Source of the DNA: an uncultured Holophagales bacterium | Lineage (GTDB): Bacteria; Acidobacteriota; Thermoanaerobaculia; UBA2201 | Length of the DNA: 64,000 nt | Assembly: GCA_964603505.1 (NCBI GenBank) | Contig: CAZRVT010000001.1 | Span: forward strand, 52,215 to 116,214 | Direction: 5' to 3' | In this document: positions 3,071 to 44,519 of the stretch, one piece after another | Position numbering within the stretch: position 1 is the stretch's first letter | Layout of the letters: each line of letters starts with the position of its first letter | Position numbers and translations under genes: made by a program | Notes under the pieces: model-generated | What the model saw: only the letters and a program-made list of their open reading frames with translations | Databases searched by the model: none | Told to the model about the DNA's origin: nothing

Positions 3071-3144
3071 GGGGTTGTAGCTCAGCAGGATAGAGCAACG
3101 GATTCCTAATCCGTAGGCCGCCGGTTCGACTCCGGCCAGCCCCA
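3071..3144 (+). tRNA. tRNA-Arg (anticodon CCT)
   Basis: Cloverleaf: acceptor GGGGTTG/CAGCCCC, D-arm AGCTCAGCAGGATAGAGC, anticodon loop TTCCTAA, T-arm GGTTCGACTCC, discriminator A. No encoded CCA. Confidence 0.9.
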
Positions 3145-3439
3145 TTCTTCCATCTATCAATGATTCAAAGGCCTTTCAAGCCGTTGCCGGCCTTCCGGCC
3201 CACGGCATGGATGAGCGTCCATAGGCCATGGATGGGCCTCCCAGTGTACCCAAAGTGTACCCGTCCGTTTTTGCTATTTTGAGGACCAGTCTGGCTGAAA
3301 AAGGGACGAGCCCAAAAACTAAAAGATTTCCACCGATGGACGGAATTTCGGAATGTATTGAGCCATCCTCAATTTTTTCACGTCCTGATCTCAAAATCCG
3401 AGGGCAACACTGTGGGGATCATTTCCCAAAGGGGTTGTT

Positions 3440-4080
3440 ATGGGAAATGCCCGATACAAGCATTTGAGTGCGGAAGAACGAGAAGAACTGACGATCGATT
3501 GGGCGTTGGGGATGAGGCTGCGGGCCATGGCCCGCAGCCTCCAGCGCCCCCCTCCGACGGGAGGTGGCTCGCCATGGGCCGTCCGGGCATGACGCCCGGG
3601 CCGCCGACGCCCCGCAGCGGGCCCAGGCCCGGAGCTGGCGTCCCCGGCGGAGGCGAACATGGCTGCATCCTCGGCGCCGGGAGGCCGTCGTGGGACATGG
3701 CCCGCGGATCGCCCGCGCCGATTGTGGCCCGGTTGAAACTGGACGAGGCCCGCCGGGCCTTCGAACGCTGCCTCCGCCCCGTTCCCGAACCCCTCCGCCC
3801 GTCCCTCACCGATAGCCAGGACAAGGCAATGGCCGACCATGAACGCTTGGCCCGGAACCTTCCTATCCGCATCTTCTTCGCCGCCCCCCCACAGCCCATG
3901 GCCGCGGGGCACCATCGAGAACATCAGCGGCCTGCTCCGCCGGTCCCTCCCGAAAGGGATCGACCTCCCCTGTTACTCCCAACGGGGACTCAACGCCATC
4001 GCCGCCAGTCCCCACACCCGCCCTGCCAAGGCTTGGGATGGCCTCCTTTCGACGAAGTCTTTGTGCGGCCCTAACCTAAT
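3440..4080 (+). mobile_element. Decayed IS30-family transposase (multiple frameshifts and internal deletion)
   Basis: Frame 1: MGNARYKHLSAEEREELTIDWALGMRLRAMARSLQRPPPT.. matches the IS30 N-terminal HTH (YxHLTxEER..G.S.R.IAR.L.R..ST). A different frame at 3839-4096 gives ENISGLLRRSLPKGIDLPCYSQRGLNAIAASPHTRPAKAWDGL, matching the IS30 C-terminus (NENTNGLLRQYFPKGTDLS..LD.IA..LN.RPRK.LG). About 640 bp versus about 1 kb for an intact gene. Confidence 0.6.
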
Positions 4081-4223: not shown

Positions 4224-7200
4224 ATGGCCAAACCCCTGAACATTTCCGTAAAGAAAGCCCCCTGGGTGGCCAAGCAGGAGAAGATCAAGAATGTCTTTCC
4301 GGGCCCCCGGGGTGAATTGCTTTTGATCACCAATGCTTCAATCTATCAGGCCTTGCCGATGGGCGACTGGCGCCTCATCGGTCCTTTGCCAGACATAGAT
4401 GATTCGAAGATCCATGCCGGCATGGGAAGGGATATGATCCTTTTATACTACAGGGATCTCGGCCTCGTGCAGGGGTATTCAATGCGCGGGACACTCCTGT
4501 GGACCGAGGCATGGCCGGAGGATCATCGCTGTTTCATGGTCGATGGCGAGGATATATTTTCCTGCGGGCAACACGAATATCTCTTCGCGCACGGCCGCTT
4601 TTCCCCAAAAGGGATCGAACGCATTCGATTCTTCCCGGAGACGATAGTGGTGGATGGGAATCGCATTATTTCTTTCGATCTGGTTTTCCCTTCGGAGGAT
4701 TCCATCATCCTCGTGGATAAAGGCTATTTGCAGACGGTCGTGTCCCTGTCCAAATCCTTTCTGGCAGGCGGACCCGCCGGCGCGCGCCTGCTGGACCGGA
4801 CGGAACGAGACACGGTGTACCCCAACTGCCATGTGCTCGTCATCAAGGGCCAGGTGTTTCTCCTGAACGATCTGGACGACCCGGCGCTTTCCTTCGTTCC
4901 GGGCCCCAACCCGATCCGCCCCCTCCCCGTGCCGGCCAGATTAGCCCAGTTCGGACTTCTGGAACGGTTCCGCCGGGGGACCCCCAGGGACCTGGATGAG
5001 GTCGCGCTGGTGATTGCCCATTTGAGCGCCTTGGCAGCATCCGACCGTTCATCATCCTTCGACGACCAGGAGACCCTGATCTCCATCCGGCCGGATACAA
5101 CCGGTGTGACCGCCTACACCAGCCACCGGACCCACCACTATCCCCCCGGTGCGCGATGGCTTTCTTCCCTAAAGGAAGTGGACCGCCGGGAAATCCGGTC
5201 CGCGGACGATTATGCAGGCGCCATGGCCATGTTCACCCTGCTCCAGAAGGGCGACGCCGGCCTGGCGGCGGCCATGAAGTTTCTGGTAAGGGCCCCAAGT
5301 TCCGTGCAACGGATGATCTGTGGCTATCTCCTGGCGCGGGGCCCCGGCGCAGTGGATCGCATGCTCTCCCTGATCAATCCCACCCTCCTGTCCCTCCCTC
5401 CCCAGGTCCGGGACGAAGCCAACATCTCCGCCCTCATCGGGGCTTTCCCGGACCGCCTCCCCCGGCACGCCCCGCGTGCGCTGAGGGAACGGGCTCTACC
5501 CATCCAAGCCCGATGGGCCTGGCTGGAAGGCCTGGGCCAGTCTGGAGGGTGGCGGAGGGGAACGAATGGAATCGTCTTGTGCTCCACTTCCCATCGCCGG
5601 CCGCCCCTCCCCACCGGCCTGGTCCATCAGCTCCGCAAAGAACTCAAGGGGCCGGCGCCGGTCCAAGCGGCCATGGCCTTGGACCGGCTGGGATTACCGG
5701 ATCGGCTGAACGCGCTGCGCCGGAACTTCGACAAGGAGGACTCCTATGATGCCTCCTCGGCGCTCATGACATTGATCAGCCATGAGACGGACCCGGAGCG
5801 CCTCTCCCGATTGTTCGAGGAGCGCTTCCCCCCCAACGGTCCGGCCCCTCGGATCCGAATGCCCGACCTGGACGATCACCTTCCCGGAAATATGCGGGAG
5901 CTCGCGGCCGGCATCCTGAGCGGCCATCTCTTCGGGCGGGACCCCGCGGCCTATTTCGGTGACTTCATCGAAAGCCAATTGCAATGGCATCTATCCGCCT
6001 TCCTGAAGATCACCCAGGAGAAACAGCTCCCGCTCATTCTGCGATTCCTGCGGGCCGCCCTGGTCGCCCTGAGGGAAGATCAGGACGATCCCTTGGGACG
6101 CGCCCTGGGCGAAGAGACCATGCAGCGGGTCGTCCGGGACACGGTCTCATTTGGCTTCCATCTGCCCATCGCGGACGCCATCGCTTTAGGTGCCCTGATT
6201 CTCACCGGTATGCCCACGATGGCTGATTTCGTTCAGGGGGACAAACTCTCCCGCATTCTTGGCATTCTCCTGGGGCGCCGCGTTGCCGGCCAAGCATCCC
6301 CCTTCTCCGGGCCCAGTGCCCAGTGGACGCAAAGGCATTTTGAACTGGTGCAGCCGATGGTGGAATACCTCAATATCCACCGGCCGGAGGAGGCCTTTCG
6401 GATCCAGGCCATGTTCGCGTTCCGGGGCCTGCCGGTCCATGTCATGGGGCTCGTCTCCACGAAAGGACCGCGCACCCACGCCGACCGTCTGCAGGCCTTC
6501 GGGACCCAGACCGACGGGGCCACCCTGCCGTCGCCGGAGGCGCTGGAGGACCGGGTCCGAGCCGGGATGCGGCATGGAGACCTGCTCGACCGCTTCACCT
6601 GGGCCCAGATCTGGGCGTATCGGGGCTTGGAGGCGTGGGAAGAGGAGATGCCGGACCTGTTGCGCCGTCTGCACCCGCGGTCTCCCTGGACGACGGGCCT
6701 GGCGTTATCGGTCCTCTCCCCCGAGGATCGGCAGGAGGCCGTCCGGAAACATCTCCGGGCGCCCTGGCTCACCGACGCCCACCTTTCGCTCTGGCTCAAG
6801 GGGTGGGACGCCCTGTCGAGCATCGGCTTCATCCGGGACGCGGCGAAGGCCAGGCACTGGGAACCTTCAATGGTTTTGGGCCTGCTGGAGGCCAAGTTCC
6901 ACTCGGCCCGCCCCGAAGTGAGCCAGAACGCGATGGAGGCCTACATGGACCTGTGGTCGGCCTCCCAACCGGACGATGAATCCGGCTTGATGGGCGCCAT
7001 GTATTGCGTCGAGGAGGGTCGTCTGGGTCACTCTCCGGACAAGGCCCTGGACCTTCTGGAAAGAACCATCAAGCGGCTCACCGACTCGGATAGAATGGAC
7101 GCATCCCAGGCCGAGGCATACCGCAAACGGGTGGCGCGCGCGAGAAGGCGGCTGAAAAGCGGCCGCATCGAACCCCCCGAAGAAAGCGGCATCGGCGCCT

Positions 7201-7247
7201 TGAGCTTGCCCGAAAAGGATCCGTCCGGCCGCCCAAGCCAATCTTGA
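4224..7247 (+). CDS. Large (1007 aa) mostly alpha-helical hypothetical protein
   Basis: Long ORF; strong RBS AGAGGAGGA 5 nt before the ATG at 4224 (the track's 4176 start is upstream of the RBS). First ~700 nt are markedly AT-richer than the genome. No Walker A or other catalytic motif recognised. Confidence 0.7.
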   Translation: MAKPLNISVKKAPWVAKQEKIKNVFPGPRGELLLITNASIYQALPMGDWRLIGPLPDIDDSKIHAGMGRDMILLYYRDLGLVQGYSMRGTLLWTEAWPEDHRCFMVDGEDIFSCGQHEYLFAHGRFSPKGIERIRFFPETIVVDGNRIISFDLVFPSEDSIILVDKGYLQTVVSLSKSFLAGGPAGARLLDRTERDTVYPNCHVLVIKGQVFLLNDLDDPALSFVPGPNPIRPLPVPARLAQFGLLERFRRGTPRDLDEVALVIAHLSALAASDRSSSFDDQETLISIRPDTTGVTAYTSHRTHHYPPGARWLSSLKEVDRREIRSADDYAGAMAMFTLLQKGDAGLAAAMKFLVRAPSSVQRMICGYLLARGPGAVDRMLSLINPTLLSLPPQVRDEANISALIGAFPDRLPRHAPRALRERALPIQARWAWLEGLGQSGGWRRGTNGIVLCSTSHRRPPLPTGLVHQLRKELKGPAPVQAAMALDRLGLPDRLNALRRNFDKEDSYDASSALMTLISHETDPERLSRLFEERFPPNGPAPRIRMPDLDDHLPGNMRELAAGILSGHLFGRDPAAYFGDFIESQLQWHLSAFLKITQEKQLPLILRFLRAALVALREDQDDPLGRALGEETMQRVVRDTVSFGFHLPIADAIALGALILTGMPTMADFVQGDKLSRILGILLGRRVAGQASPFSGPSAQWTQRHFELVQPMVEYLNIHRPEEAFRIQAMFAFRGLPVHVMGLVSTKGPRTHADRLQAFGTQTDGATLPSPEALEDRVRAGMRHGDLLDRFTWAQIWAYRGLEAWEEEMPDLLRRLHPRSPWTTGLALSVLSPEDRQEAVRKHLRAPWLTDAHLSLWLKGWDALSSIGFIRDAAKARHWEPSMVLGLLEAKFHSARPEVSQNAMEAYMDLWSASQPDDESGLMGAMYCVEEGRLGHSPDKALDLLERTIKRLTDSDRMDASQAEAYRKRVARARRRLKSGRIEPPEESGIGALSLPEKDPSGRPSQS

Positions 7248-7329: not shown

Positions 7330-9789
7330 ATGGCTTCAATGGACGAGGCCCGGTTCCACGAACTTGCCCGGCAAGTCAACCGCTATTGGGGGGCGCATCT
7401 CTTTCCTCGCGTTGTGGACCAGGGGCCCGCGCGGATGGATTGGTACTATGTCTCCGTGGCCCGGGACCAACTGCTCAAGGGCGACGACCGGGTTCTACAC
7501 CTTCTCTTGCACGAATGGGGCCACCGAACCATTTCACCCGCCAACATCGAGCAGGGGATCGCGTGGGGCGTTTTTCTTGAACAGGAGGGGATGGGGTCCG
7601 CGGAAGCGCAGGACCTTGTCAACATCGCCGCCGATGTCTGGGTGGACGACCGCTATCTCTCGCTCGATCCGTGGAAAGAGCTCTACGCGCGTTCCATCAC
7701 CCGCCAAGTCGGGGAGATCCGGGAACAGCTCGCCCAGGACCGGCGACGGGGGGATTTCCCTTACGCCGACAAGGTCCTGCGTTTTATGGGCGGAATCTAC
7801 GAAGCCATGCTCGTGGCCCATGGGTACCCTCCGCCGCCGGGGGGAGGCGGCAAGGGAGACGCGCCCGCCAAAGCCGGACGGCGGGCCTACGCGGCCCTGA
7901 CCGATCCCCTATCGCCGGTGGAGGAGCGGCTGAGGGCCCTGGTCCGCGAGGGGGGCCGCTATGTCGCCGACCTTAACCGCCTGAAGCGTCTGGTGGACCT
8001 GTTGGCCCGGTGGGGCCGCTCTTCCATCCTTCCCGAGGACGCCGACCTTCCCTTGGACCTCTCCCGCCTCGCCCGCCTTCTGCGCCAGATGAGGGTCAAG
8101 AGCGAAACGGCCGGCAACTCCAGCCTCGTCCCTGCCCGTCACCGGCGGGCCTTGGCGATGGAAGTGCGCAAATTGGAGCTCTACGAGCTCGTGGTCACCC
8201 CCATGGAGCGGTTGTTGCGGCGGCGCACCCCCCGCGAGCGCTGCGGGTTCCAGATTTGGAACGCCGGAATGCCCATGCGTTGGCTCTTGGTGGAGGAGAC
8301 GATCCAGCGGCACGGCGAGGTCCTGGCCAATGTGACCACCCTCCGACGGGCCCATCGGAACCGGGGTCCGGAATCGTCTGCCGGCTCGGCCGCCCATGTG
8401 TGCTGCGTCATCGACGACAGCGGTTCCACATCGGGGGCCGCCATTCAACGGGAGCAGGAGGCCTCGTTCGCCGTCATCCAGACGGCCCGGCGGAAGCGCG
8501 ACCTCTTTTCCGTCGTCGTTTTCGGGACGCGCGTCACCCATGCGATGGAGCCGGGATTCGATTACCTGGCGGGGGAAGACCTCATTTGTTCGCTCGGAGG
8601 GCTCAGCGGGGGAACCGCCCTTCTGCCCGCCCTGCAGCAGGCCCTGGCCTACTCCGAGCGCGGGACGAGCACCTCCACCCTGGTGTTCACCGACACGGGC
8701 GTGTATGACCTGGAAGATTGCCTGCCGGCCATGGAGGTCCTCGCGCGGCGGGGGCGCCTGGTCCTTTTCTGTTTCGCCTCCTCTGCGGAGGTGGCGGCAT
8801 TCCGACGCAAGATCCCCAGGCGCGCCAACCCGACCTTTTTCAACAGCGTCCTGCCCCTCCTCTCGGAGCGGCGGGTGACCTTCCGAGACAAGGTCTTCGA
8901 AAGCCCCGGCTACATCATGTTTCTGGACCGCAACCCCCATGACGAGGCGAGCAACGAGATCCCGCGCGCGTTCATGGACCGCATCGACTTCGGCTTCGAC
9001 CTTCCGGTCATGCATATCGACGAGACCCTGCGGCTATACGACCGGATCACGGTCCGACAGAAACTGCACTGGGGCTCCCTGGAGCACCTGGCGCCGGCGG
9101 TATTGCGCGTGGAAGAACTGGTCCGAATCTGGGCCGCGGTCCAGGAGGTCGCCATCGATATTCGGCAGCGGGTGTGGGCCTGCATGCTCTCGGACGCCTT
9201 CCGCCTCTGCATCAAGCAGGAGCGCTCGGAGCTCTCCCCGGATTTCGTTCTGAACTGCGCCGACTGCAAGTTCCAGGCGGAGATCTGCGCCCATCTCCAG
9301 CAGATCCCCGGCCACCGGTTCACCCACAGCACCCTGCGGCTGGCCCAGGCCCGGGCCTGGCTCAACGGGCAGGCGCGCGTGTCCGAAGAAGACATCACCT
9401 GGGCCCTCCCCTACACCCTCGCCCATCGCCTCGTCCTCAAGCCGGAGCTCATGCGGCAGACCCCCTCGACGGCCCAATGGCTCCACAAGACCGCTTGCGG
9501 AGAGATCCTGGCCAACAAGGAACCGGTGTGGCGGGCGGCCCTCGACGGGTTCATGGCCGGCGACGCCGCCGCCCTGGAGAGGACCTGGCAGCAGGATTTG
9601 GTCATCCAGACCATGTTCATGTTCATGCGCACCGAGGGTTACCGGGACTTCATCACCCCCTACATCGAGTCGGGTCCCAAGGCCAAGGTCGAGCGCCTCC
9701 GCGCCGCCCCCCCCCGTGGACGGCACCGGAAAGGCCCCGGCCCGGAAGGCCAAGCGCCACCGGTAGGGGCTACGCCATTTCGATCATGA
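7330..9789 (+). CDS. Putative metallopeptidase-like (HExxH) + VWA/MIDAS-domain protein (DUF2201-type), 819 aa
   Basis: N-terminal LLLHEWGHRT (HExxH). Mid-protein VCCVIDDSGSTSGA (DxSxS MIDAS) ..VVVFGT..GGTALLPAL..TSTLVFTDTG (VWA fold). Confidence 0.7.
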   Translation: MASMDEARFHELARQVNRYWGAHLFPRVVDQGPARMDWYYVSVARDQLLKGDDRVLHLLLHEWGHRTISPANIEQGIAWGVFLEQEGMGSAEAQDLVNIAADVWVDDRYLSLDPWKELYARSITRQVGEIREQLAQDRRRGDFPYADKVLRFMGGIYEAMLVAHGYPPPPGGGGKGDAPAKAGRRAYAALTDPLSPVEERLRALVREGGRYVADLNRLKRLVDLLARWGRSSILPEDADLPLDLSRLARLLRQMRVKSETAGNSSLVPARHRRALAMEVRKLELYELVVTPMERLLRRRTPRERCGFQIWNAGMPMRWLLVEETIQRHGEVLANVTTLRRAHRNRGPESSAGSAAHVCCVIDDSGSTSGAAIQREQEASFAVIQTARRKRDLFSVVVFGTRVTHAMEPGFDYLAGEDLICSLGGLSGGTALLPALQQALAYSERGTSTSTLVFTDTGVYDLEDCLPAMEVLARRGRLVLFCFASSAEVAAFRRKIPRRANPTFFNSVLPLLSERRVTFRDKVFESPGYIMFLDRNPHDEASNEIPRAFMDRIDFGFDLPVMHIDETLRLYDRITVRQKLHWGSLEHLAPAVLRVEELVRIWAAVQEVAIDIRQRVWACMLSDAFRLCIKQERSELSPDFVLNCADCKFQAEICAHLQQIPGHRFTHSTLRLAQARAWLNGQARVSEEDITWALPYTLAHRLVLKPELMRQTPSTAQWLHKTACGEILANKEPVWRAALDGFMAGDAAALERTWQQDLVIQTMFMFMRTEGYRDFITPYIESGPKAKVERLRAAPPRGRHRKGPGPEGQAPPVGATPFRS

Positions 9790-9861
9790 TCATGCGCCCC
9801 ATGGGCGCAGTCCCGGCGACGAGGAGGGCGATGATCCGCTCCCACAGGCCGCCGGCGCGCA

Positions 9862-10202
9862 TCACGGGCGCACCCGCTTGAGCCAGCCCCCCAGCATCTT
9901 CCCCACGGGGTCCAGTTCCGTACAGAGGTGGTGGTACTTCTTCCGCCGGAGGTACCCCATCCCCGCCGCCAGGCGCAGGGTGAGGCGGAAGCCGTCAGGG
10001 CGGCCGAGGCCTCGCGCACCGCCCGAGGCGGGTCGAGGCCGTTCAATGCCCGGACGCAGGCGTCGCGGACGGCGAATAATTCGTCCTCCAGCCGCTTCCC
10101 CAGCGTGAAGCGGTGGTCGCGGGGGAACCGGCCGATTGGCGGCAGGAGCCACTCCAGGATGGATTGCATTTTCATCACCACAGGATAGTCGGTGTCGGTC
10201 AT
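9862..10202 (-). pseudogene. avd: avd (DGR accessory variability determinant) homologue with a single-nucleotide frameshift near 9996
   Basis: Frame A gives MTDTDYPVVMKMQSILEWLLPPIGRFPRDHRFTLGKRLEDELFAVRDACVRA..REASAAL (Avd hallmark FPR[DS][HE][KR]F.LG.R[IL]E). Frame B continues DGFRLTLRLAAGMGYLRRKKYHHLCTELDPVGKMLGGWLKRVRP* (Avd C-terminal LRF..RLA......Y..L...L.EIGKMLGGW). The junction gccctg/acggcttc would read ..AALDGFR.. if one G were restored. RBS GGGGGA before the ATG at 10202. Confidence 0.65.
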
Positions 10203-10274
10203 CTTGTCCCCCACCCACCAGGCAGTGGGCAGATAGCCAATGGAAAGGAGCGGGAACAGCGTTCCCCCGGGTGG

Positions 10275-10751
10275 TCACTCCCCCTGTTCCAAGTATTCCT
10301 TTTTCCCGAGAAGAAAGAGAAGATCTTCCTGGTCGCGCGGCCGCACGCCCCGTTTGGTCTCGATCAGCGTGGAAAGGCCGCACAGCGGGATGGTCGAACC
10401 GTCCAGGACCAGTTCCTCCACATCGCCGACCGCGGTCTCGAATGTGACCTCCCCCACCCTACCGATGAGGTCAATGACGACCTCCCCGGATGCCGGAGCG
10501 AACCGGACGACCGCATATTGTGCTACCTCCCCGTCCCCCAGCCCCAGGATCTCCTCCGAGCCATACGCCCGGTGGAGCGCCTCCTTCATCCTCCGGATGT
10601 TTTCGGGATCGGGGTCCACGAGCAGGTCGATGTCCTGCGTCGTCCGGAAGTAACCGTGAAGGGCGATAGCGCAACCGCCGATCACCACATAGCGGACCCC
10701 GGCGCCGTTGAGGGCCCGGCATAGCTTAACGAGTTCGTCCTTGATTTCCAA
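10275..10751 (-). CDS. Nucleotidyltransferase-fold protein (minimal NTase, GG..DxD)
   Basis: LEIKDELVKLCRALNGAGVRYVVIGGCAIALHGYFRTTQDIDLLVD matches the [GS]G-x9-13-DxD NTase core. No in-frame ATG; start assumed TTG at 10751, so boundary uncertain. Overlaps the upstream small ORF by ~25 nt. Confidence 0.5.
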   Translation of the reverse strand: MEIKDELVKLCRALNGAGVRYVVIGGCAIALHGYFRTTQDIDLLVDPDPENIRRMKEALHRAYGSEEILGLGDGEVAQYAVVRFAPASGEVVIDLIGRVGEVTFETAVGDVEELVLDGSTIPLCGLSTLIETKRGVRPRDQEDLLFLLGKKEYLEQGE

Positions 10752-10956
10752 GGCGGATCCGCGCCCGCATGGCCTGCGCCTGGGCCTCGTGAAAGGTTTC
10801 GAAACGGTACAGTCCCGGGGGCATTTGGATCGTGGGGGTGAACGCCAGGGCACTCTCAATATGCGCCCGATCGGGCGTGAAACGCCGGCTGATCCCTTTT
10901 CCCCCGGCCTCGAAACGCTCCGCGTCCTCGAAGCTCTTAAATTTAAAAATGGACAT
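10726..10956 (-). CDS. Small hypothetical protein (76 aa)
   Basis: ATG with good RBS (AAAGGTGA-N4-ATG); MSIFKFKSFEDAERFE.. Local GC lower than genome. No family recognised. Confidence 0.45.
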   Translation of the reverse strand: MSIFKFKSFEDAERFEAGGKGISRRFTPDRAHIESALAFTPTIQMPPGLYRFETFHEAQAQAMRARIRLGNQGRTR

Positions 10957-11120
10957 GGATCACCTTTCTCTATGATGATACCACACGACCTTCCCGTCCA
11001 TTCTCCCGGCAGATGGCCAATGGGATAGGGGGCAACGCCGGCGGCCTGACGGCCGCGATGGGAAAAAACCCCAAGTCCATCCCCCGCCCCCAAACCCCAA
11101 AACCGAAACCAAAAGCAAGG

Positions 11121-12989
11121 TCACCTGTCCTGGGCGCAACGGAAGCCGAGGTAGCAGTCCCCGCGGCCGGGGTCGCCCCCGTTGCGGTTGGAGACGCGCA
11201 GGTCCCCGGGGTGGAAGTACCAGGAACCGCCGCGCAATATCCGAGATTCGCTACCGCCTGTAACCCAAGCCCGGCCATCCATTGGGGCGCCCTGGTAATT
11301 ACCGTTCCCCCGGTCTTCGCACCACTCCCACACATTCCCCGCCAGGTCCAGGTGCCCGAACGGACCCATCCCCTCCGGATACTCGCCCACCGCCGAGGGG
11401 TGGCCGAGAGCTTCATCATAATTGGCCCGGCCCGCGTTCGGCTCCCCGTTCCCCCACGGATATTTCCGCCCATCCTTCCCCTTTGCCGCATACTCCCACT
11501 CCGCCTCGCTCGGCAACCGCAGCCCCGCCCATTTAGCATATGCTTTTGCTTCTTCCCAATTCACGTTTACCACCGGGTGGTCGGGGTAGCCCTCCAGGTA
11601 ATTGCCTTCCAGCTCATCGAATGTGCCATCGTTGCGCTCCATGAATTCCTCCAGGTCCCCGGCCCGGGCGCTCTTAAGATAGGCCAGAAACTGCCGGTTC
11701 GTCACCGGATGCTTGTCAAGCCAGAAGCCCGTTCTGAAGGTCACCTTGTGGACGGGCTTCTCATCGCCATAGGCCTCTTCATCTTCGCTCCCCATCATAA
11801 ACTCCCCGGGCGGCACCCAGACCATGACATGTCCGTTCTTAAGCTCCTTCTCGTAATAGCCCTTTTCGTTCTTCCGGATCCCCTCCCGCTGGTGAGGCGG
11901 CGGCAGATTGGGGTCTTGGGCCGCCACGCGCTCCTCCTCCAGCCCTTCCAGCCGCTTCTTCGCCGCCCCGGCGTCCGGCCGCTTGGAGCCATCCTTGTTC
12001 AGCAGTGTTCCCAAGGCGCCCCACAGCGCATCGTCCGCTTCCTGGGGCCGGCGCGCCTCCACCGTGCAGTGCTGGGAGCGCACCAGCTCCGCGTCCGGAT
12101 CGGTGAACGGGGCCCGCCCCGCCAGCATCTCGTACAACATTATGCCCACCGCGTAGACGTCCACCTTCCCCGTGATCTCCTCCCCCCGGATCCGCTCCGG
12201 CGCCATGTACCACGGCGTCCCCATGAACTTCCGGGCCTCCGACGCCGCCGACACCTGGCTCCGCGTGATATCCACGCTGATGCCGAAGTCGATGATCTTG
12301 GCGTTGCCGGTCTTCTTTTCGATCAGGATGTTCTCCGGCTTGATGTCCAGGTGGTAGATGCCCTCGTGGTGGGCCTCGGCCAGCCCCTCCAGGATCTGGG
12401 CGCAGATCTTGACCGCCTCCGGCTCAGGAAGGGTCTTGCGCTCATTAAGGACCTCCCGCAAACTCTGTCCTTCAACATAGGCCACGACTAGATATTCGTA
12501 CTCCCCATCCCTGCCCAGGTCGAAGACCCTGTTAATGTGGCGGTGGCTGAGACTGCTGAGGCGCCGGTATTCTTTGCGGAGGTTGTCAAGGGAGACGGGA
12601 TCGTATTCCCGCCCGGCCTTCAGGACCTTGAGGACTTTCTTGTCTCCAGTGCGCTCGTCGTGGGCCAGGAGGACATCGCCCTGTCCCCCGCTGGAAAGGG
12701 GCCGCTCCACCTTGTACCGTCCTTCGAGAACAGTGCCGGGACCAAGCATGGGCATGAAGGTGCCAACGGGGGCCGGGGGGATGGGGGACCGGGCCGGAAC
12801 CCCGGCGGGGCGGGGGGGCGGAGGCGGCCCCGACGGCGTGGGCGTCATCCCCCCCAGCGCCGCCCGCTCCTCGGGGGCCAGATCGGCCAGGATCTCCGCC
12901 TTGAGCTCCCGGTACATCTCCTCGCCGATCTCCTTGGCCAGGAAGCGTTCTCTCAGCACCCTCAATTGGCGCCGGGCATCGTCGGTCAT
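11121..12989 (-). CDS. SHOCT-like N-terminus + Ser/Thr protein kinase + C-terminal FGE-sulfatase/C-type-lectin-fold domain; candidate DGR variable protein
   Basis: Kinase motifs: SSGGQGDV (Gly loop), VLKVLK (Lys), YHLDIKPENILI (non-RD catalytic loop), IIDFGIS (DFG), YMAPE. C-terminal domain WLDKHPVTNRQFLAYL..NVNWEEAKAYAKWAG..RLPSEAEWEYAA..GNVWEWCED..RILRGGSWY..LGFRCA is the FGE-sulfatase fold. No signal peptide or TM, so predicted cytoplasmic. Confidence 0.85.
   Translation of the reverse strand: MTDDARRQLRVLRERFLAKEIGEEMYRELKAEILADLAPEERAALGGMTPTPSGPPPPPRPAGVPARSPIPPAPVGTFMPMLGPGTVLEGRYKVERPLSSGGQGDVLLAHDERTGDKKVLKVLKAGREYDPVSLDNLRKEYRRLSSLSHRHINRVFDLGRDGEYEYLVVAYVEGQSLREVLNERKTLPEPEAVKICAQILEGLAEAHHEGIYHLDIKPENILIEKKTGNAKIIDFGISVDITRSQVSAASEARKFMGTPWYMAPERIRGEEITGKVDVYAVGIMLYEMLAGRAPFTDPDAELVRSQHCTVEARRPQEADDALWGALGTLLNKDGSKRPDAGAAKKRLEGLEEERVAAQDPNLPPPHQREGIRKNEKGYYEKELKNGHVMVWVPPGEFMMGSEDEEAYGDEKPVHKVTFRTGFWLDKHPVTNRQFLAYLKSARAGDLEEFMERNDGTFDELEGNYLEGYPDHPVVNVNWEEAKAYAKWAGLRLPSEAEWEYAAKGKDGRKYPWGNGEPNAGRANYDEALGHPSAVGEYPEGMGPFGHLDLAGNVWEWCEDRGNGNYQGAPMDGRAWVTGGSESRILRGGSWYFHPGDLRVSNRNGGDPGRGDCYLGFRCAQDR
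11124..11231 (-). repeat. Putative DGR variable region (VR) at the 3' end of the kinase-FGE gene
   Basis: Coding codons between GGSW and LGFRCA read TAC TTC CAC CCC GGG GAC .. AAC CGC AAC GGG GGC GAC CCC GGC CGC GGG GAC TGC TAC. Almost all are NNC codons reachable from AAC by changes at A positions only, and two AAC are retained. Invariant scaffold (GGSW, LRVS, R, LGFRCA) flanks them. Confidence 0.55.
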
Positions 12990-41811: not shown

Positions 41812-42077
41812 CATCCTGATCCCCCTGCTTCGCGCGCTTTTAGCCGTATTCCCCTGCTTGGTGCGTGTAGAGCTCCGTGCTCCTGAACCAACACTTCCGC
41901 CCCGGGATCGTTCGTGGACGACCGGGCCCGGTGATCCCCGCGGGGAACTGATGGGCCCGGCCCGAGGATCCCACCTGGCTCTGCCAGGTTCAGAGCCACC
42001 GCTCTTACGGCCGAAGCGGGGGATTTTGACCCTCTCGCCCGCTCCATAGACGGGGTCGCCTCCGCCAGGAGGTGACC

Positions 42078-43730: not shown

Positions 43731-44519
43731 GTGGTGAGCTTGCGCGTCCTGGGCATCGGCGACGTGGTGGGCAAGCCGGGCCGCAAGGCCCTGGCGGAGC
43801 ACCTCGGCCCGCTGATCCGGGAGCACGGGGTCCACCTGGTGGTGGCCAACATCGAGAACGCGGCCGGGGGGTTCGGGCCGGACCTCAAGACCATGCAGGA
43901 GCTGCTGGAGCTCCCCATCCATGTCTTCACCGCCGGCAGCCACGTGTGGGACAAGAAGGAGTTCGCCGCCGCCCTCGACCTCTACCCCATGGTCCTGCGC
44001 CCCGCCAACTACCCCCCCGGCAACCCCGGCCGGGGGCACATCGTCTGGCCCCTCCCCGACGGCCGGAAGGTGGCGGTGGTCCAGCTGGAGGGGCGCGTCT
44101 TCATGGACGCCCTCGACTGCCCCTTCCGCGCCCTCGACGCCCTCCTGGCCGAGCTCCCGCCGGAGGTCCCGCTCCTGGTGGACTTCCACGGCGAGGCCAC
44201 CTCGGAAAAGCAGGCCTTCGGCCACTACGCCGACGGCCGCGTCGCCGCCGTCTGGGGCACCCACACCCATGTCCCGACGGCCGATGCCCGCATCCTCCCC
44301 GGCGGCACCGCCTTCCTCACCGATGTCGGGATGTGCGGCGCCTACGACTCCGTCATCGGCTTCGACAAGGAGGTCATCGTCGGCAAGTTCCTGCGGCAGG
44401 CCCCCGTGCGGTTCGAGGTGGCCCGGGGAACGGGTCATCTCGCCGGCGTCCTCATCGACATCGACTACGCGACGAAAAAAGCCACCGCCATCCGTCCCCT
44501 GATGGTGCCGGCGCTGTAG
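43731..44519 (+). CDS. ymdB: YmdB-family metallophosphoesterase (2',3'-cNMP phosphodiesterase)
   Basis: LGIGDVVGKPGR, GHIVWPLPDG, DFHGEATSEK, GTHTHVPTAD calcineurin-like motifs. Conserved rny-ymdB linkage. Confidence 0.85.
   Translation: MVSLRVLGIGDVVGKPGRKALAEHLGPLIREHGVHLVVANIENAAGGFGPDLKTMQELLELPIHVFTAGSHVWDKKEFAAALDLYPMVLRPANYPPGNPGRGHIVWPLPDGRKVAVVQLEGRVFMDALDCPFRALDALLAELPPEVPLLVDFHGEATSEKQAFGHYADGRVAAVWGTHTHVPTADARILPGGTAFLTDVGMCGAYDSVIGFDKEVIVGKFLRQAPVRFEVARGTGHLAGVLIDIDYATKKATAIRPLMVPAL

What the first reader, a model, noticed from the sequence alone, without database searches (positions are those of the whole stretch)
9862..12989. DGR-like cassette: cytoplasmic Ser/Thr kinase with a hypervariable-looking FGE-sulfatase (C-type lectin fold) tip, plus avd; RT and TR not in the window
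The 622-aa protein is SHOCT-like N-terminus / Pro-rich linker / catalytically competent non-RD Ser-Thr kinase / FGE-sulfatase domain. Its last ~35 codons read GGSW-YFHPGD-LRVSNRN-GGDPGRGDCY-LGFRCA. Apart from scaffold residues, nearly every codon (TAC, TTC, CAC, CCC, GAC, GGC, TGC..) is an NNC codon reachable from AAC by changes at A positions only, and two AAC are still present. This is what adenine-specific DGR mutagenesis of an AAC-rich template leaves behind, and the FGE/CLec fold with terminal LGFRxA is the commonest DGR target scaffold. 0.9 kb downstream on the same strand is a clear avd homologue. Kinase-type DGR targets have been described mainly in cyanobacteria; here the context is a high-GC non-cyanobacterial genome and the protein has no signal peptide or TM, implying an intracellular diversified sensor kinase. 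Caveat: in a 70% GC genome C-ending codons are favoured anyway, so the codon pattern is suggestive, not proof.
Basis: partly seen in the sequence, partly recalled or inferred. Interest (0 to 1): 0.8.

Follow-up and report, generated by a model that had tools for sequence, protein, structure and literature searches.

The report
Decayed DGR cassette beside sensor kinase
An intact cytoplasmic Ser/Thr kinase with a lectin-like C-terminal sensor domain sits next to the wreck of a diversity-generating retroelement (frameshifted avd, reverse transcriptase cut to about 12 codons, no template repeat), so the sensor tip is most likely a frozen ex-hypervariable region, a state already described for other bacteria.

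Summary
The 622-aa gene (11121-12989, minus strand) is real. It has a Hanks-type non-RD kinase domain and a non-enzymatic FGE-sulfatase/C-type-lectin domain, and no transmembrane helix. The avd 0.9 kb downstream is a genuine DGR Avd, but it is split over two reading frames by a 1-nt deletion near 9995/9996. One nucleotide into its stop codon begins a 30-codon ORF. The first 12 codons of that ORF (MRAGGLWERIIA) are the best match in the whole window to DGR reverse-transcriptase N-termini, and the rest of the RT is gone. No template repeat or RT exists in the 64-kb window or in 10 kb beyond it. In related avd-RT-TR cassettes the TR lies just after the RT, so it was probably lost with it.

The NNC-codon signature is real (19/23 codons against 35% gene-wide), but it is not diagnostic. 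Two of four related kinase-FGE genes with no DGR nearby show it equally, and one of those has a conserved tip among orthologues.

The locus lies in a non-syntenic island of a Holophagales relative, next to a MoxR-vWA conflict system that is also broken. My verdict is a degenerate DGR locus, a new member of a known kind. Diversification in trans by a complete DGR elsewhere cannot be excluded, because the rest of the genome could not be reached.

The parts
11121..12989 (-). Intact 622-aa gene. It encodes an N-terminal helical region (aa 1-45), a Pro-rich disordered linker (aa 47-78), a Hanks-type non-RD Ser/Thr kinase domain and a C-terminal FGE-sulfatase (C-type lectin fold) domain. There is no TM helix.
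11961..12716 (-). Kinase domain (aa 92-343) with the catalytic residues intact (K121, E140, HLD213-215, N220, DFG234-236).
   Evidence: Pfam Pkinase 4.7e-53; invariant columns; the model superposes on PknA/PknB/Stk1 with TM 0.82-0.88
11133..11828 (-). FGE-sulfatase / CLec-fold domain (aa 388-619). It lacks the two catalytic cysteines of true formylglycine-generating enzymes, so it is a binding domain, not an enzyme.
   Evidence: Pfam 2e-59; PDB sequence matches include FGEs and the DGR target TvpA 2y3c (8.6e-12); the alignment to 6muj shows the C..C motif deleted
11151..11219 (-). VR-like segment (aa 591-613, YFHPGDLRVSNRNGGDPGRGDCY), the putative former variable region. It has 19/23 NNC codons and no K/E/Q/M/W.
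   Evidence: It is co-linear codon by codon with the verified VRs of pPAES01.
11041..11056 (-). GC hairpin GCGGCC-GTCA-GGCCGC, about 65-80 nt after the stop codon. It sits at a distance comparable to the hairpins downstream of VRs in related DGR loci. Its function is not shown.
10726..10956 (-). 76-aa ORF with no family match. Together with the next gene it occupies the slot that holds an HRDC accessory gene in related DGRs.
10275..10751 (-). 158-aa nucleotidyltransferase-like ORF with weak matches to NTP_transf_5, DUF6036 and AbiEii.
11008..11023 (.). One copy of a 16-nt direct repeat (15/16 identical) that flanks the two-gene insert. The partner copy is at 10228-10243.
10228..10243 (.). Second copy of the 16-nt direct repeat, just upstream of avd.
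9862..10202 (-). avd pseudogene: a DGR accessory variability determinant split over two frames by a 1-nt deletion near 9995/9996. Both halves still carry the family's invariant residues.
9770..9862 (-). Stub of the DGR reverse transcriptase gene. The ATG overlaps the avd stop by 1 nt. The first 12 codons (9827-9862) match DGR RT N-termini, and the ORF then ends after 30 codons.
7339..9789 (+). Convergent neighbour: an 816-aa in-frame fusion of a vWA protein (homologues are 514-517 aa) with a bpMoxR ATPase that lacks its first 70-126 residues, including Walker A. This is a broken MoxR-vWA ternary conflict system.

Best explanation
This is a degenerate diversity-generating retroelement locus in a genomic island of a Holophagales-related acidobacterium.

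The ancestral cassette had the order target (kinase-FGE) - accessory slot - avd - RT - TR, all on the minus strand. The RT would have copied the TR with adenine-specific errors and written the cDNA into the last ~70-130 nt of the FGE/CLec domain. That would have varied three surface clusters (YFH, NGGD, DCY) of a cytoplasmic ligand-binding tip that gates a non-RD Ser/Thr kinase.

Since then the RT has been deleted after about codon 12. The TR, which lies directly downstream of the RT in this avd clade, went with it, and avd acquired a 1-nt deletion. The kinase-FGE gene stayed intact, so the cell keeps a fixed-specificity sensor kinase whose tip is a frozen former VR.

Shown: the domain architecture; the avd frameshift; the RT stub; the absence of RT and TR within about 74 kb; non-synteny with the nearest relative; decay of the neighbouring MoxR-vWA system.

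Inferred: that the kinase was the DGR's target; that the TR was downstream of the RT; that diversification has stopped.
For: - **The avd is real but split.** The Avd HMM hits two frames (E 6e-8 and 1e-8). The repaired protein matches Pfam bAvd at 55.1 bits (cut-off 40) over positions 5-107 of 107, NCBIfam DivGenRetAVD at 75.5 bits, and annotated Avds by tblastn (best pPAES01, 35%, 6e-14).
- **RT stub.** Profiles of 5 and then 19 independent DGR RT N-termini both rank RAGGLWERIIA (9859-9827) first among 1,315 six-frame segments of the window. It sits exactly at the avd stop. In 16 of 18 related loci the RT start overlaps or abuts the avd stop.
- **No RT elsewhere.** A motif scan and tblastn with 5 RTs found nothing in the window or in the 10-kb extension.
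- **No TR in the window.** A blastn search found none. The same kind of low-stringency blastn search recovers the TR-VR pairs with A-specific mismatches in pPAES01 and in 9 metagenomic relatives.
- **Architecture fits.** The TR lies 8-90 nt after the RT stop in 9 of 9 relatives, and the VR-to-avd gap there is 690-975 nt against about 916 nt here.
- **Same sequence in every assembly.** The sequence is identical in two independent assemblies. The protein cluster has a single member, and the 179-kb contig assembles straight through the VR.
- **Island context.** Synteny with Holophagales UBA2201 ends at the aldehyde dehydrogenase stop. An IS30-like fragment and tRNA-Arg lie on the far side. The adjacent MoxR is truncated.
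- **Precedent.** Degenerate DGR loci and loss of the diversification machinery are documented (PMC10907252, PMC7517822).
Against: - That the kinase was the target rests on adjacency, strand, spacing and fold, not on a TR-VR alignment.
- Its FGE domain is closer (42-45%) to kinase-FGE proteins with no DGR nearby than to verified targets of the avd clade (30-36%).
- The conserved post-VR element of that clade is not detectable here.
- The HRDC accessory gene is replaced by unrelated ORFs.
- The NNC signature also occurs in non-DGR controls.
- The two assemblies probably derive from the same reads, so the avd frameshift could in principle be a shared assembly error, although the site is not a homopolymer.
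- The RT stub match is short (E about 0.1-0.6 on its own).
- The rest of the genome could not be searched. The source contig is absent from both scanned collections.
Confidence: 0.62

Rival explanations
1. The locus is a 'remote' or 'degenerate' target that is still diversified in trans. A complete DGR (RT, Avd, TR) elsewhere in the same genome has a TR that matches this VR and keeps rewriting it. The local avd and RT copies are redundant and have decayed.
For: Exactly this arrangement is described for Thiohalocapsa, where each class has one complete locus plus degenerate loci (PMC10907252), and for cyanobacterial remote variable proteins (PMC7517822). The kinase ORF and a GC hairpin downstream of the VR are intact. 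NNC enrichment is as strong as in verified VRs. Only about 74 kb of the genome could be examined.
Against: No TR or RT was found in the 74 kb examined. The VR is identical in every assembly and sample that holds it, and the cluster is a singleton. The long contig assembled through the VR without a break. The clade's conserved post-VR element is not recognisable.
Confidence: 0.17
2. The kinase-FGE gene is an ordinary, never-diversified sensor kinase that merely lies beside a DGR wreck. The real target of that DGR was lost in the same rearrangements that inserted the 76-aa/NTase pair and deleted the RT.
For: Kinase+FGE is a very common architecture (4,926 hits). The four nearest relatives checked have no avd or RT nearby. 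Their C-terminal segment has the same length and pattern. Two of them are equally NNC-rich, and the P0034/P0036/P0047 orthologues conserve it. The region between the kinase and avd holds foreign genes flanked by a 16-nt repeat. The post-VR element is missing.
Against: A CLec-fold C-terminus on the same strand, at the clade-typical distance upstream of avd, is what a DGR target looks like. Unlike its relatives this kinase has no TM segment and lies in the non-syntenic island, not in the FHA/PP2C/FtsW context. Only one FGE domain exists in the window, so chance adjacency is improbable.
Confidence: 0.2

Closest known systems
Degenerate DGR loci and STK-CLec variable proteins (Thiohalocapsa PB-PSB1, PMC10907252; cyanobacteria, PMC7517822)
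   Same: The target is a multidomain signalling protein: a Ser/Thr kinase with a C-terminal CLec/FGE domain, predicted cytosolic. The local RT and accessory genes are missing or pseudogenised. The neighbourhood holds MoxR-vWA conflict-system genes and transposase remnants.
   Different: No matching TR or complete partner locus could be shown. The host is a Holophagales-like acidobacterium, not a cyanobacterium or a purple sulfur bacterium. The neighbouring MoxR-vWA system is itself broken, and its intact homologues (L020, L022) carry no DGR.
avd-RT-TR cassettes with an HRDC accessory gene (architectures B2/C of Wu et al., PMC5758913), e.g. Prosthecochloris aestuarii pPAES01
   Same: This is the closest annotated Avd (35%). 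The order is the same: FGE-type target, about 0.7-1 kb accessory slot, avd, then an RT whose start overlaps the avd stop. The RT N-terminus is similar (MKRVGLLFERVVAF against MRAGGLWERIIA). The VR is co-linear from W to GFR.
   Different: Here the RT is a 12-codon stub, there is no TR, avd is frameshifted, the HRDC gene is replaced by a 76-aa ORF plus a nucleotidyltransferase, the conserved post-VR element was not found, and the target carries an N-terminal kinase.
Bifunctional Ser/Thr kinase / FGE-family proteins (PknB-like membrane sensor kinases with an FGE ectodomain)
   Same: These are the best sequence relatives of both domains (41-45%). They share the C-terminal pattern RGGSW-x6-LRxSxR-x4-PGxx-x3-LGFRCA.
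   Different: Those proteins have a TM segment between the domains and sit in FHA/PP2C/FtsW/PBP operons. This one has no TM segment and sits beside DGR remnants in an island.

Membership tests
Diversity-generating retroelement (functional cassette) | A DGR-clade reverse transcriptase gene | tested here: not met
   Only a 12-codon N-terminal stub remains at 9827-9862. No RT motifs or tblastn hits were found in the window or in 10 kb beyond it.
Diversity-generating retroelement (functional cassette) | A template repeat matching the VR, with differences at TR adenines | tested here: not met
   No repeat of 11051-11500 exists in the window. The same kind of search finds the TRs in pPAES01 and 9 other loci. 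Degenerate-pattern scans of the public collections were uninformative because the source contig is not in them.
Diversity-generating retroelement (functional cassette) | An Avd accessory protein | tested here: inconclusive
   The homology is clear, but the gene is split by a frameshift, so an intact product is not encoded as assembled.
Diversity-generating retroelement (functional cassette) | A VR at the 3' end of a target gene in a CLec/FGE fold, with cis elements (IMH, hairpin) | tested here: inconclusive
   The fold and position fit, and a GC hairpin is present. The clade's post-VR element is not detected, and the NNC signature is non-specific.
Diversity-generating retroelement (functional cassette) | Population-level hypervariation confined to the VR | not testable with these tools
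All the assemblies are identical and the protein cluster has a single member.
Hanks-type Ser/Thr protein kinase | Gly-rich loop, VAIK Lys, alphaC Glu, HxD catalytic loop, DFG, APE | tested here: met
   Pfam Pkinase 4.7e-53. K121, E140, H213/D215, N220 and D234-G236 lie in invariant columns. The fold matches PknA/PknB. The catalytic loop reads HLD, so the kinase is non-RD.
Formylglycine-generating enzyme (catalytic) | The pair of catalytic cysteines after the GGS[YW] motif | tested here: not met
   The alignment to 6muj/2q17 shows the C-H-x-S-Y-C segment replaced by FHPG with a 3-residue gap. The domain shares the fold but is not the enzyme.
MoxR-vWA ternary conflict system (neighbouring genes) | An active MoxR AAA+ ATPase (Walker A/B) with a partner vWA protein | tested here: not met
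   The vWA part is present, but the MoxR part starts at residue 71-127 of about 400 and has no Walker A. The homologues have GTYGTGKT.

The most novel reading that the evidence does not exclude
A Holophagales-like acidobacterium, which is not multicellular or cyanobacterial, keeps a cytoplasmic Ser/Thr kinase whose lectin-fold tip is still being rewritten in trans by a complete DGR elsewhere in the genome. The kinase would act as an intracellular antigen sensor of a defence island, and the local avd and RT copies would be redundant leftovers of a duplication.
Probability: 0.15. Interest if true: 0.5.

Novelty: new member of a known kind. Interest (0 to 1): 0.3.

Why it matters
It is a clean natural example of a DGR being switched off while its target is kept. 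The kinase gene is intact, but avd, RT and TR are broken or gone, and the neighbouring MoxR-vWA system is broken as well. This supports the published idea that diversification machinery is discarded once a useful variant is fixed. It extends kinase-CLec DGR targets to Acidobacteriota.

It also gives a practical caution. NNC-codon richness at the tip of FGE domains is not evidence of DGR activity in GC-rich genomes, because non-DGR controls show it too.

Tried and rejected
- **TR search in the window.** I used blastn at word size 7. The only weak hit (43978-44039) lies inside a YmdB-like phosphoesterase gene and is chance.
- **TR search in public collections.** I used 'VR base or A' degenerate patterns in metagenome contigs and genome contigs. 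There were no hits, not even the VR itself, so the source is not in those collections and the test is uninformative.
- **Close homologues to compare VRs.** The kinase is a singleton cluster and the next hit is 41% identical. The avd has no word-sharing relatives.
- **Synteny to recover the ancestral state.** The nearest genome (Holophagales UBA2201) diverges exactly at the island border.
- **Shared 15-mer.** CTTGGGGTTTTTWCC lies downstream of the VR here and in pPAES01 and looked promising. It is not conserved in the near-identical locus L026. A profile of the clade's real post-VR element does not hit this window, and there was no hit in viral contigs. I rejected it as probably chance.
- **HRDC remnant.** The only hit is a spurious low-complexity match on the wrong strand.
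- **att-site repeat of tRNA-Arg at the island border.** None was found.
- **SHOCT domain at the N-terminus.** Not detected.
- **Fold search with the full-length model.** It returned only kinases and added nothing on the FGE tip.
Full report
**The gene.** The ORF 11121-12989 on the minus strand encodes 622 aa. Pfam finds a protein kinase domain (aa 92-343, 4.7e-53) and an FGE-sulfatase domain (aa 388-619, 2e-59). In a 20-sequence alignment the kinase keeps every invariant catalytic residue: K121, E140, H213, D215, K217, N220 and D234-F235-G236. The catalytic loop reads HLD, so 'non-RD' is correct. An AlphaFold model (mean pLDDT 80) gives a confident kinase domain that superposes on PknA, PknB and Stk1 (TM 0.82-0.88). 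It also gives a confident FGE domain and a disordered Pro-rich linker at aa 47-78. The highest 19-residue hydropathy mean is 1.14, so there is no membrane helix. Most homologues, by contrast, have one between the two domains. The FGE domain aligns with true formylglycine-generating enzymes and with the DGR target TvpA (2y3c, 8.6e-12). It lacks the two catalytic cysteines, so it is a binding module. The proposed SHOCT motif was not detected; there is only a sub-threshold GvpG-like match.

**The codon signature.** Between GGSW and LGFR, 19 of 23 codons end in C, against 35% in the rest of the gene (binomial p 3.7e-6). No K, E, Q, M or W occurs in the segment. Two controls weaken the argument:
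- 0.56% of all 23-codon windows in 30 long ORFs of this window reach 19 NNC, and 8 of the 30 ORFs contain such a window.
- I compared verified VRs with related kinase-FGE genes. All nine verified DGR VRs of the related clade are NNC-enriched (p 1e-2 to 1e-5). So are two of four kinase-FGE genes that have no DGR within 8 kb: P0032 with 19/23 and P0034 with 20/23. The P0034, P0036 and P0047 orthologues have almost the same tip sequence, so that tip is not hypervariable.

The signature is therefore compatible with a VR but not diagnostic of one.

**The avd.** The avd is real but broken. An HMM built from five annotated Avd proteins, excluding this one, hits the minus strand twice in different frames. 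Positions 3-50 match at 10190-10047 (E 6e-8) and positions 68-109 match at 9996-9871 (E 1e-8). Reading the DNA, the sequence gccgccctg-acggcttc needs one extra base near 9995/9996 to give ...SAALDGFRLTLRL... The repaired 113-aa protein scores as follows:
- Pfam bAvd at 55.1 bits, above the cut-off of 40, over positions 5-107 of 107.
- NCBIfam DivGenRetAVD at 75.5 bits, just under the cut-off of 80.
- tblastn matches to annotated Avd genes, the best being Prosthecochloris aestuarii pPAES01 (35%, 6e-14).

It aligns without internal gaps and keeps all the invariant columns on both sides of the shift. The lesion is therefore recent, or it is an assembly error. The JGI and Logan assemblies are both 100% identical to the window, and the site is not a homopolymer. 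Both gene callers split the region into 30-32-aa ORFs.

**The RT stub.** The A of the avd TGA stop is the first base of an ATG (9862). That ATG opens a 30-codon ORF, MRAGGLWERIIALLVAGTAPMGRMIMIEMA. In pPAES01 the RT overlaps the avd stop by 4 nt and begins MKRVGLLFERVVAFENLL. In 16 of 18 metagenomic relatives of this avd the RT start lies within -22 to +4 nt of the avd stop and begins MKR.G.LFE[RK]IV.FENLL. Profiles built from 5 and then 19 such N-termini, none from this window, both rank RAGGLWERIIA (9859-9827) first among all 1,315 six-frame segments of the window, aligned to model positions 3-13. The E-values are weak on their own (0.1-0.6). The top hit falling exactly where an RT must start makes chance very unlikely. 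Nothing else resembling an RT exists in the window (motif scan, tblastn with five RTs) or in the next 10 kb of the contig.

**The TR.** No repeat of the VR region exists in the window. The same kind of low-stringency blastn search recovers the TR in pPAES01, with mismatches at TR adenines, and in nine metagenomic relatives. In all nine the TR starts 8-90 nt after the RT stop, and the VR ends 690-975 nt before avd. Here the VR-to-avd distance is about 916 nt. The architecture is therefore target - accessory slot - avd - RT - TR (architectures B2/C of PMC5758913). A deletion that removed the RT body would have taken the TR with it. The homology of the opposite-strand MoxR gene ends near 9637, and the RT homology ends near 9827, so the junction lies between those points.

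**What does not fit a simple 'kinase was the target' story.**
- In the relatives the accessory slot holds an HRDC gene. Here it holds an unrelated 76-aa ORF and a 158-aa nucleotidyltransferase-like ORF, flanked by a 15/16 direct repeat.
- The relatives share a conserved element just after the VR (GTAGCCCTTGGCTCTTTTACC.TTTTACCCTTGG). A profile of it does not find this window. A 15-mer shared with pPAES01 is probably chance.
- The FGE domain is closer to kinase-FGE proteins in FHA/PP2C/FtsW/PBP operons (42-45%) than to verified targets of the clade (30-36%).

In its favour are the same strand, the clade-typical spacing, the CLec fold, co-linearity of the VR with verified VRs, a GC hairpin 65-80 nt after the stop, the loss of the TM segment, and the fact that it is the only FGE domain in the window.

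**Context.** The aldehyde dehydrogenase next to the kinase is 85% identical to that of Holophagales bacterium UBA2201. DNA synteny with that genome runs from window 22863 to 13254 and stops at the end of that gene. On the other side lie tRNA-Arg(CCT) at 3071-3144 and an IS30-like transposase fragment. There is also a 1007-aa protein with no family match, and the 816-aa ORF 7339-9789. That ORF is a vWA protein fused in frame to a bpMoxR ATPase lacking its first 70-126 residues, including Walker A. Intact homologous systems are HEAT-repeat protein - vWA (514-517 aa) - MoxR (400-404 aa). The island therefore carries two decayed conflict-type systems side by side.

**Comparison with the literature.**
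- Ser/Thr kinases with C-terminal CLec domains are the commonest multidomain DGR targets in cyanobacteria. Most are predicted cytosolic, remote targets and loss of the diversification components are discussed, and transposases are common nearby (PMC7517822).
- Thiohalocapsa has complete and 'degenerate' DGR loci, cytoplasmic targets that include a kinase domain, and links to MoxR-vWA ternary systems (PMC10907252, PMC7159879).
- A MAG survey lists Pkn1- and PknD-annotated CLec proteins among frequent DGR targets (PMC11661182).

The present locus is a further, decayed, example in a new host lineage.

**Limits.** The source contig (IMG 3300037501 Ga0394875_0000085, 179 kb) and its genome are not in the scannable collections. 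No reads are available and the protein has no close relatives. Diversification in trans cannot be excluded.

Noticed in passing
window 7339-9789 (+): The 816-aa ORF is an in-frame fusion of a vWA protein with a bpMoxR ATPase that lacks its N-terminal 70-126 residues (no Walker A). It also has a 50-aa non-homologous C-terminal tail. Intact homologues are separate 515-aa and 400-aa genes preceded by a HEAT-repeat protein of about 1,050 aa.
   Followed up: yes
window 4224-7247 (+): A 1007-aa protein has no Pfam, NCBIfam or PADLOC match. It sits where the large HEAT-repeat partner lies in homologous MoxR-vWA systems, but shows no BLAST similarity to it. Local GC drops to 0.61.
   Followed up: partly
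window 3071-3144 and 3412-4074 (+): tRNA-Arg(CCT) is followed by a 220-aa ORF with a partial IS30-family transposase match (E 8e-5). This may be the far border of the island. No att-like repeat of the tRNA end was found.
   Followed up: partly
window 10228-10243 and 11008-11023: A 16-nt direct repeat (GGCAGATrGCCAATGG, 15/16) brackets the 76-aa ORF and the nucleotidyltransferase ORF, each copy lying 40-65 nt upstream of a start codon. It could be an insertion scar or a shared regulatory site.
   Followed up: no
L005, L026, L031, L032, L036, L041, L043, L046, L059 (0-45 nt after each VR): HRDC-type avd-RT-TR DGRs share a conserved element immediately after the target stop codon (about GTAGCCCTTGGCTCTTTTACC.TTTTACCCTTGG), followed by a GC hairpin. 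It is VR-specific and absent after the TR in pPAES01. I do not know whether it has been described.
   Followed up: partly
L105 3350-5323 (P0032) and L106 8001-9878 (P0034): Kinase-FGE genes in PP2C/FHA/FtsW operons have 19-20 of 23 NNC codons in the VR-equivalent segment although no DGR is within 8 kb. The P0034, P0036 and P0047 orthologues keep nearly the same tip.
   Followed up: partly
L004 7325-12843: Three kinase-FGE paralogues lie in tandem in one 12.8-kb contig (GCA_020051655.1) beside FHA, FtsW and PBP genes. Their tips differ at many positions, including non-NNC codons.
   Followed up: partly
window 41848-42026 (+): 6S RNA (Rfam RF00013, 60.7 bits) lies just upstream of the RNase Y gene, in a locally low-GC stretch.
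   Followed up: no
window 9617-9638 and 9784-9805: A 22-nt direct repeat (18/22) links the end of the MoxR-homologous region to the RT-stub ORF. It is borderline for chance, and could be microhomology at the deletion junction.
   Followed up: no
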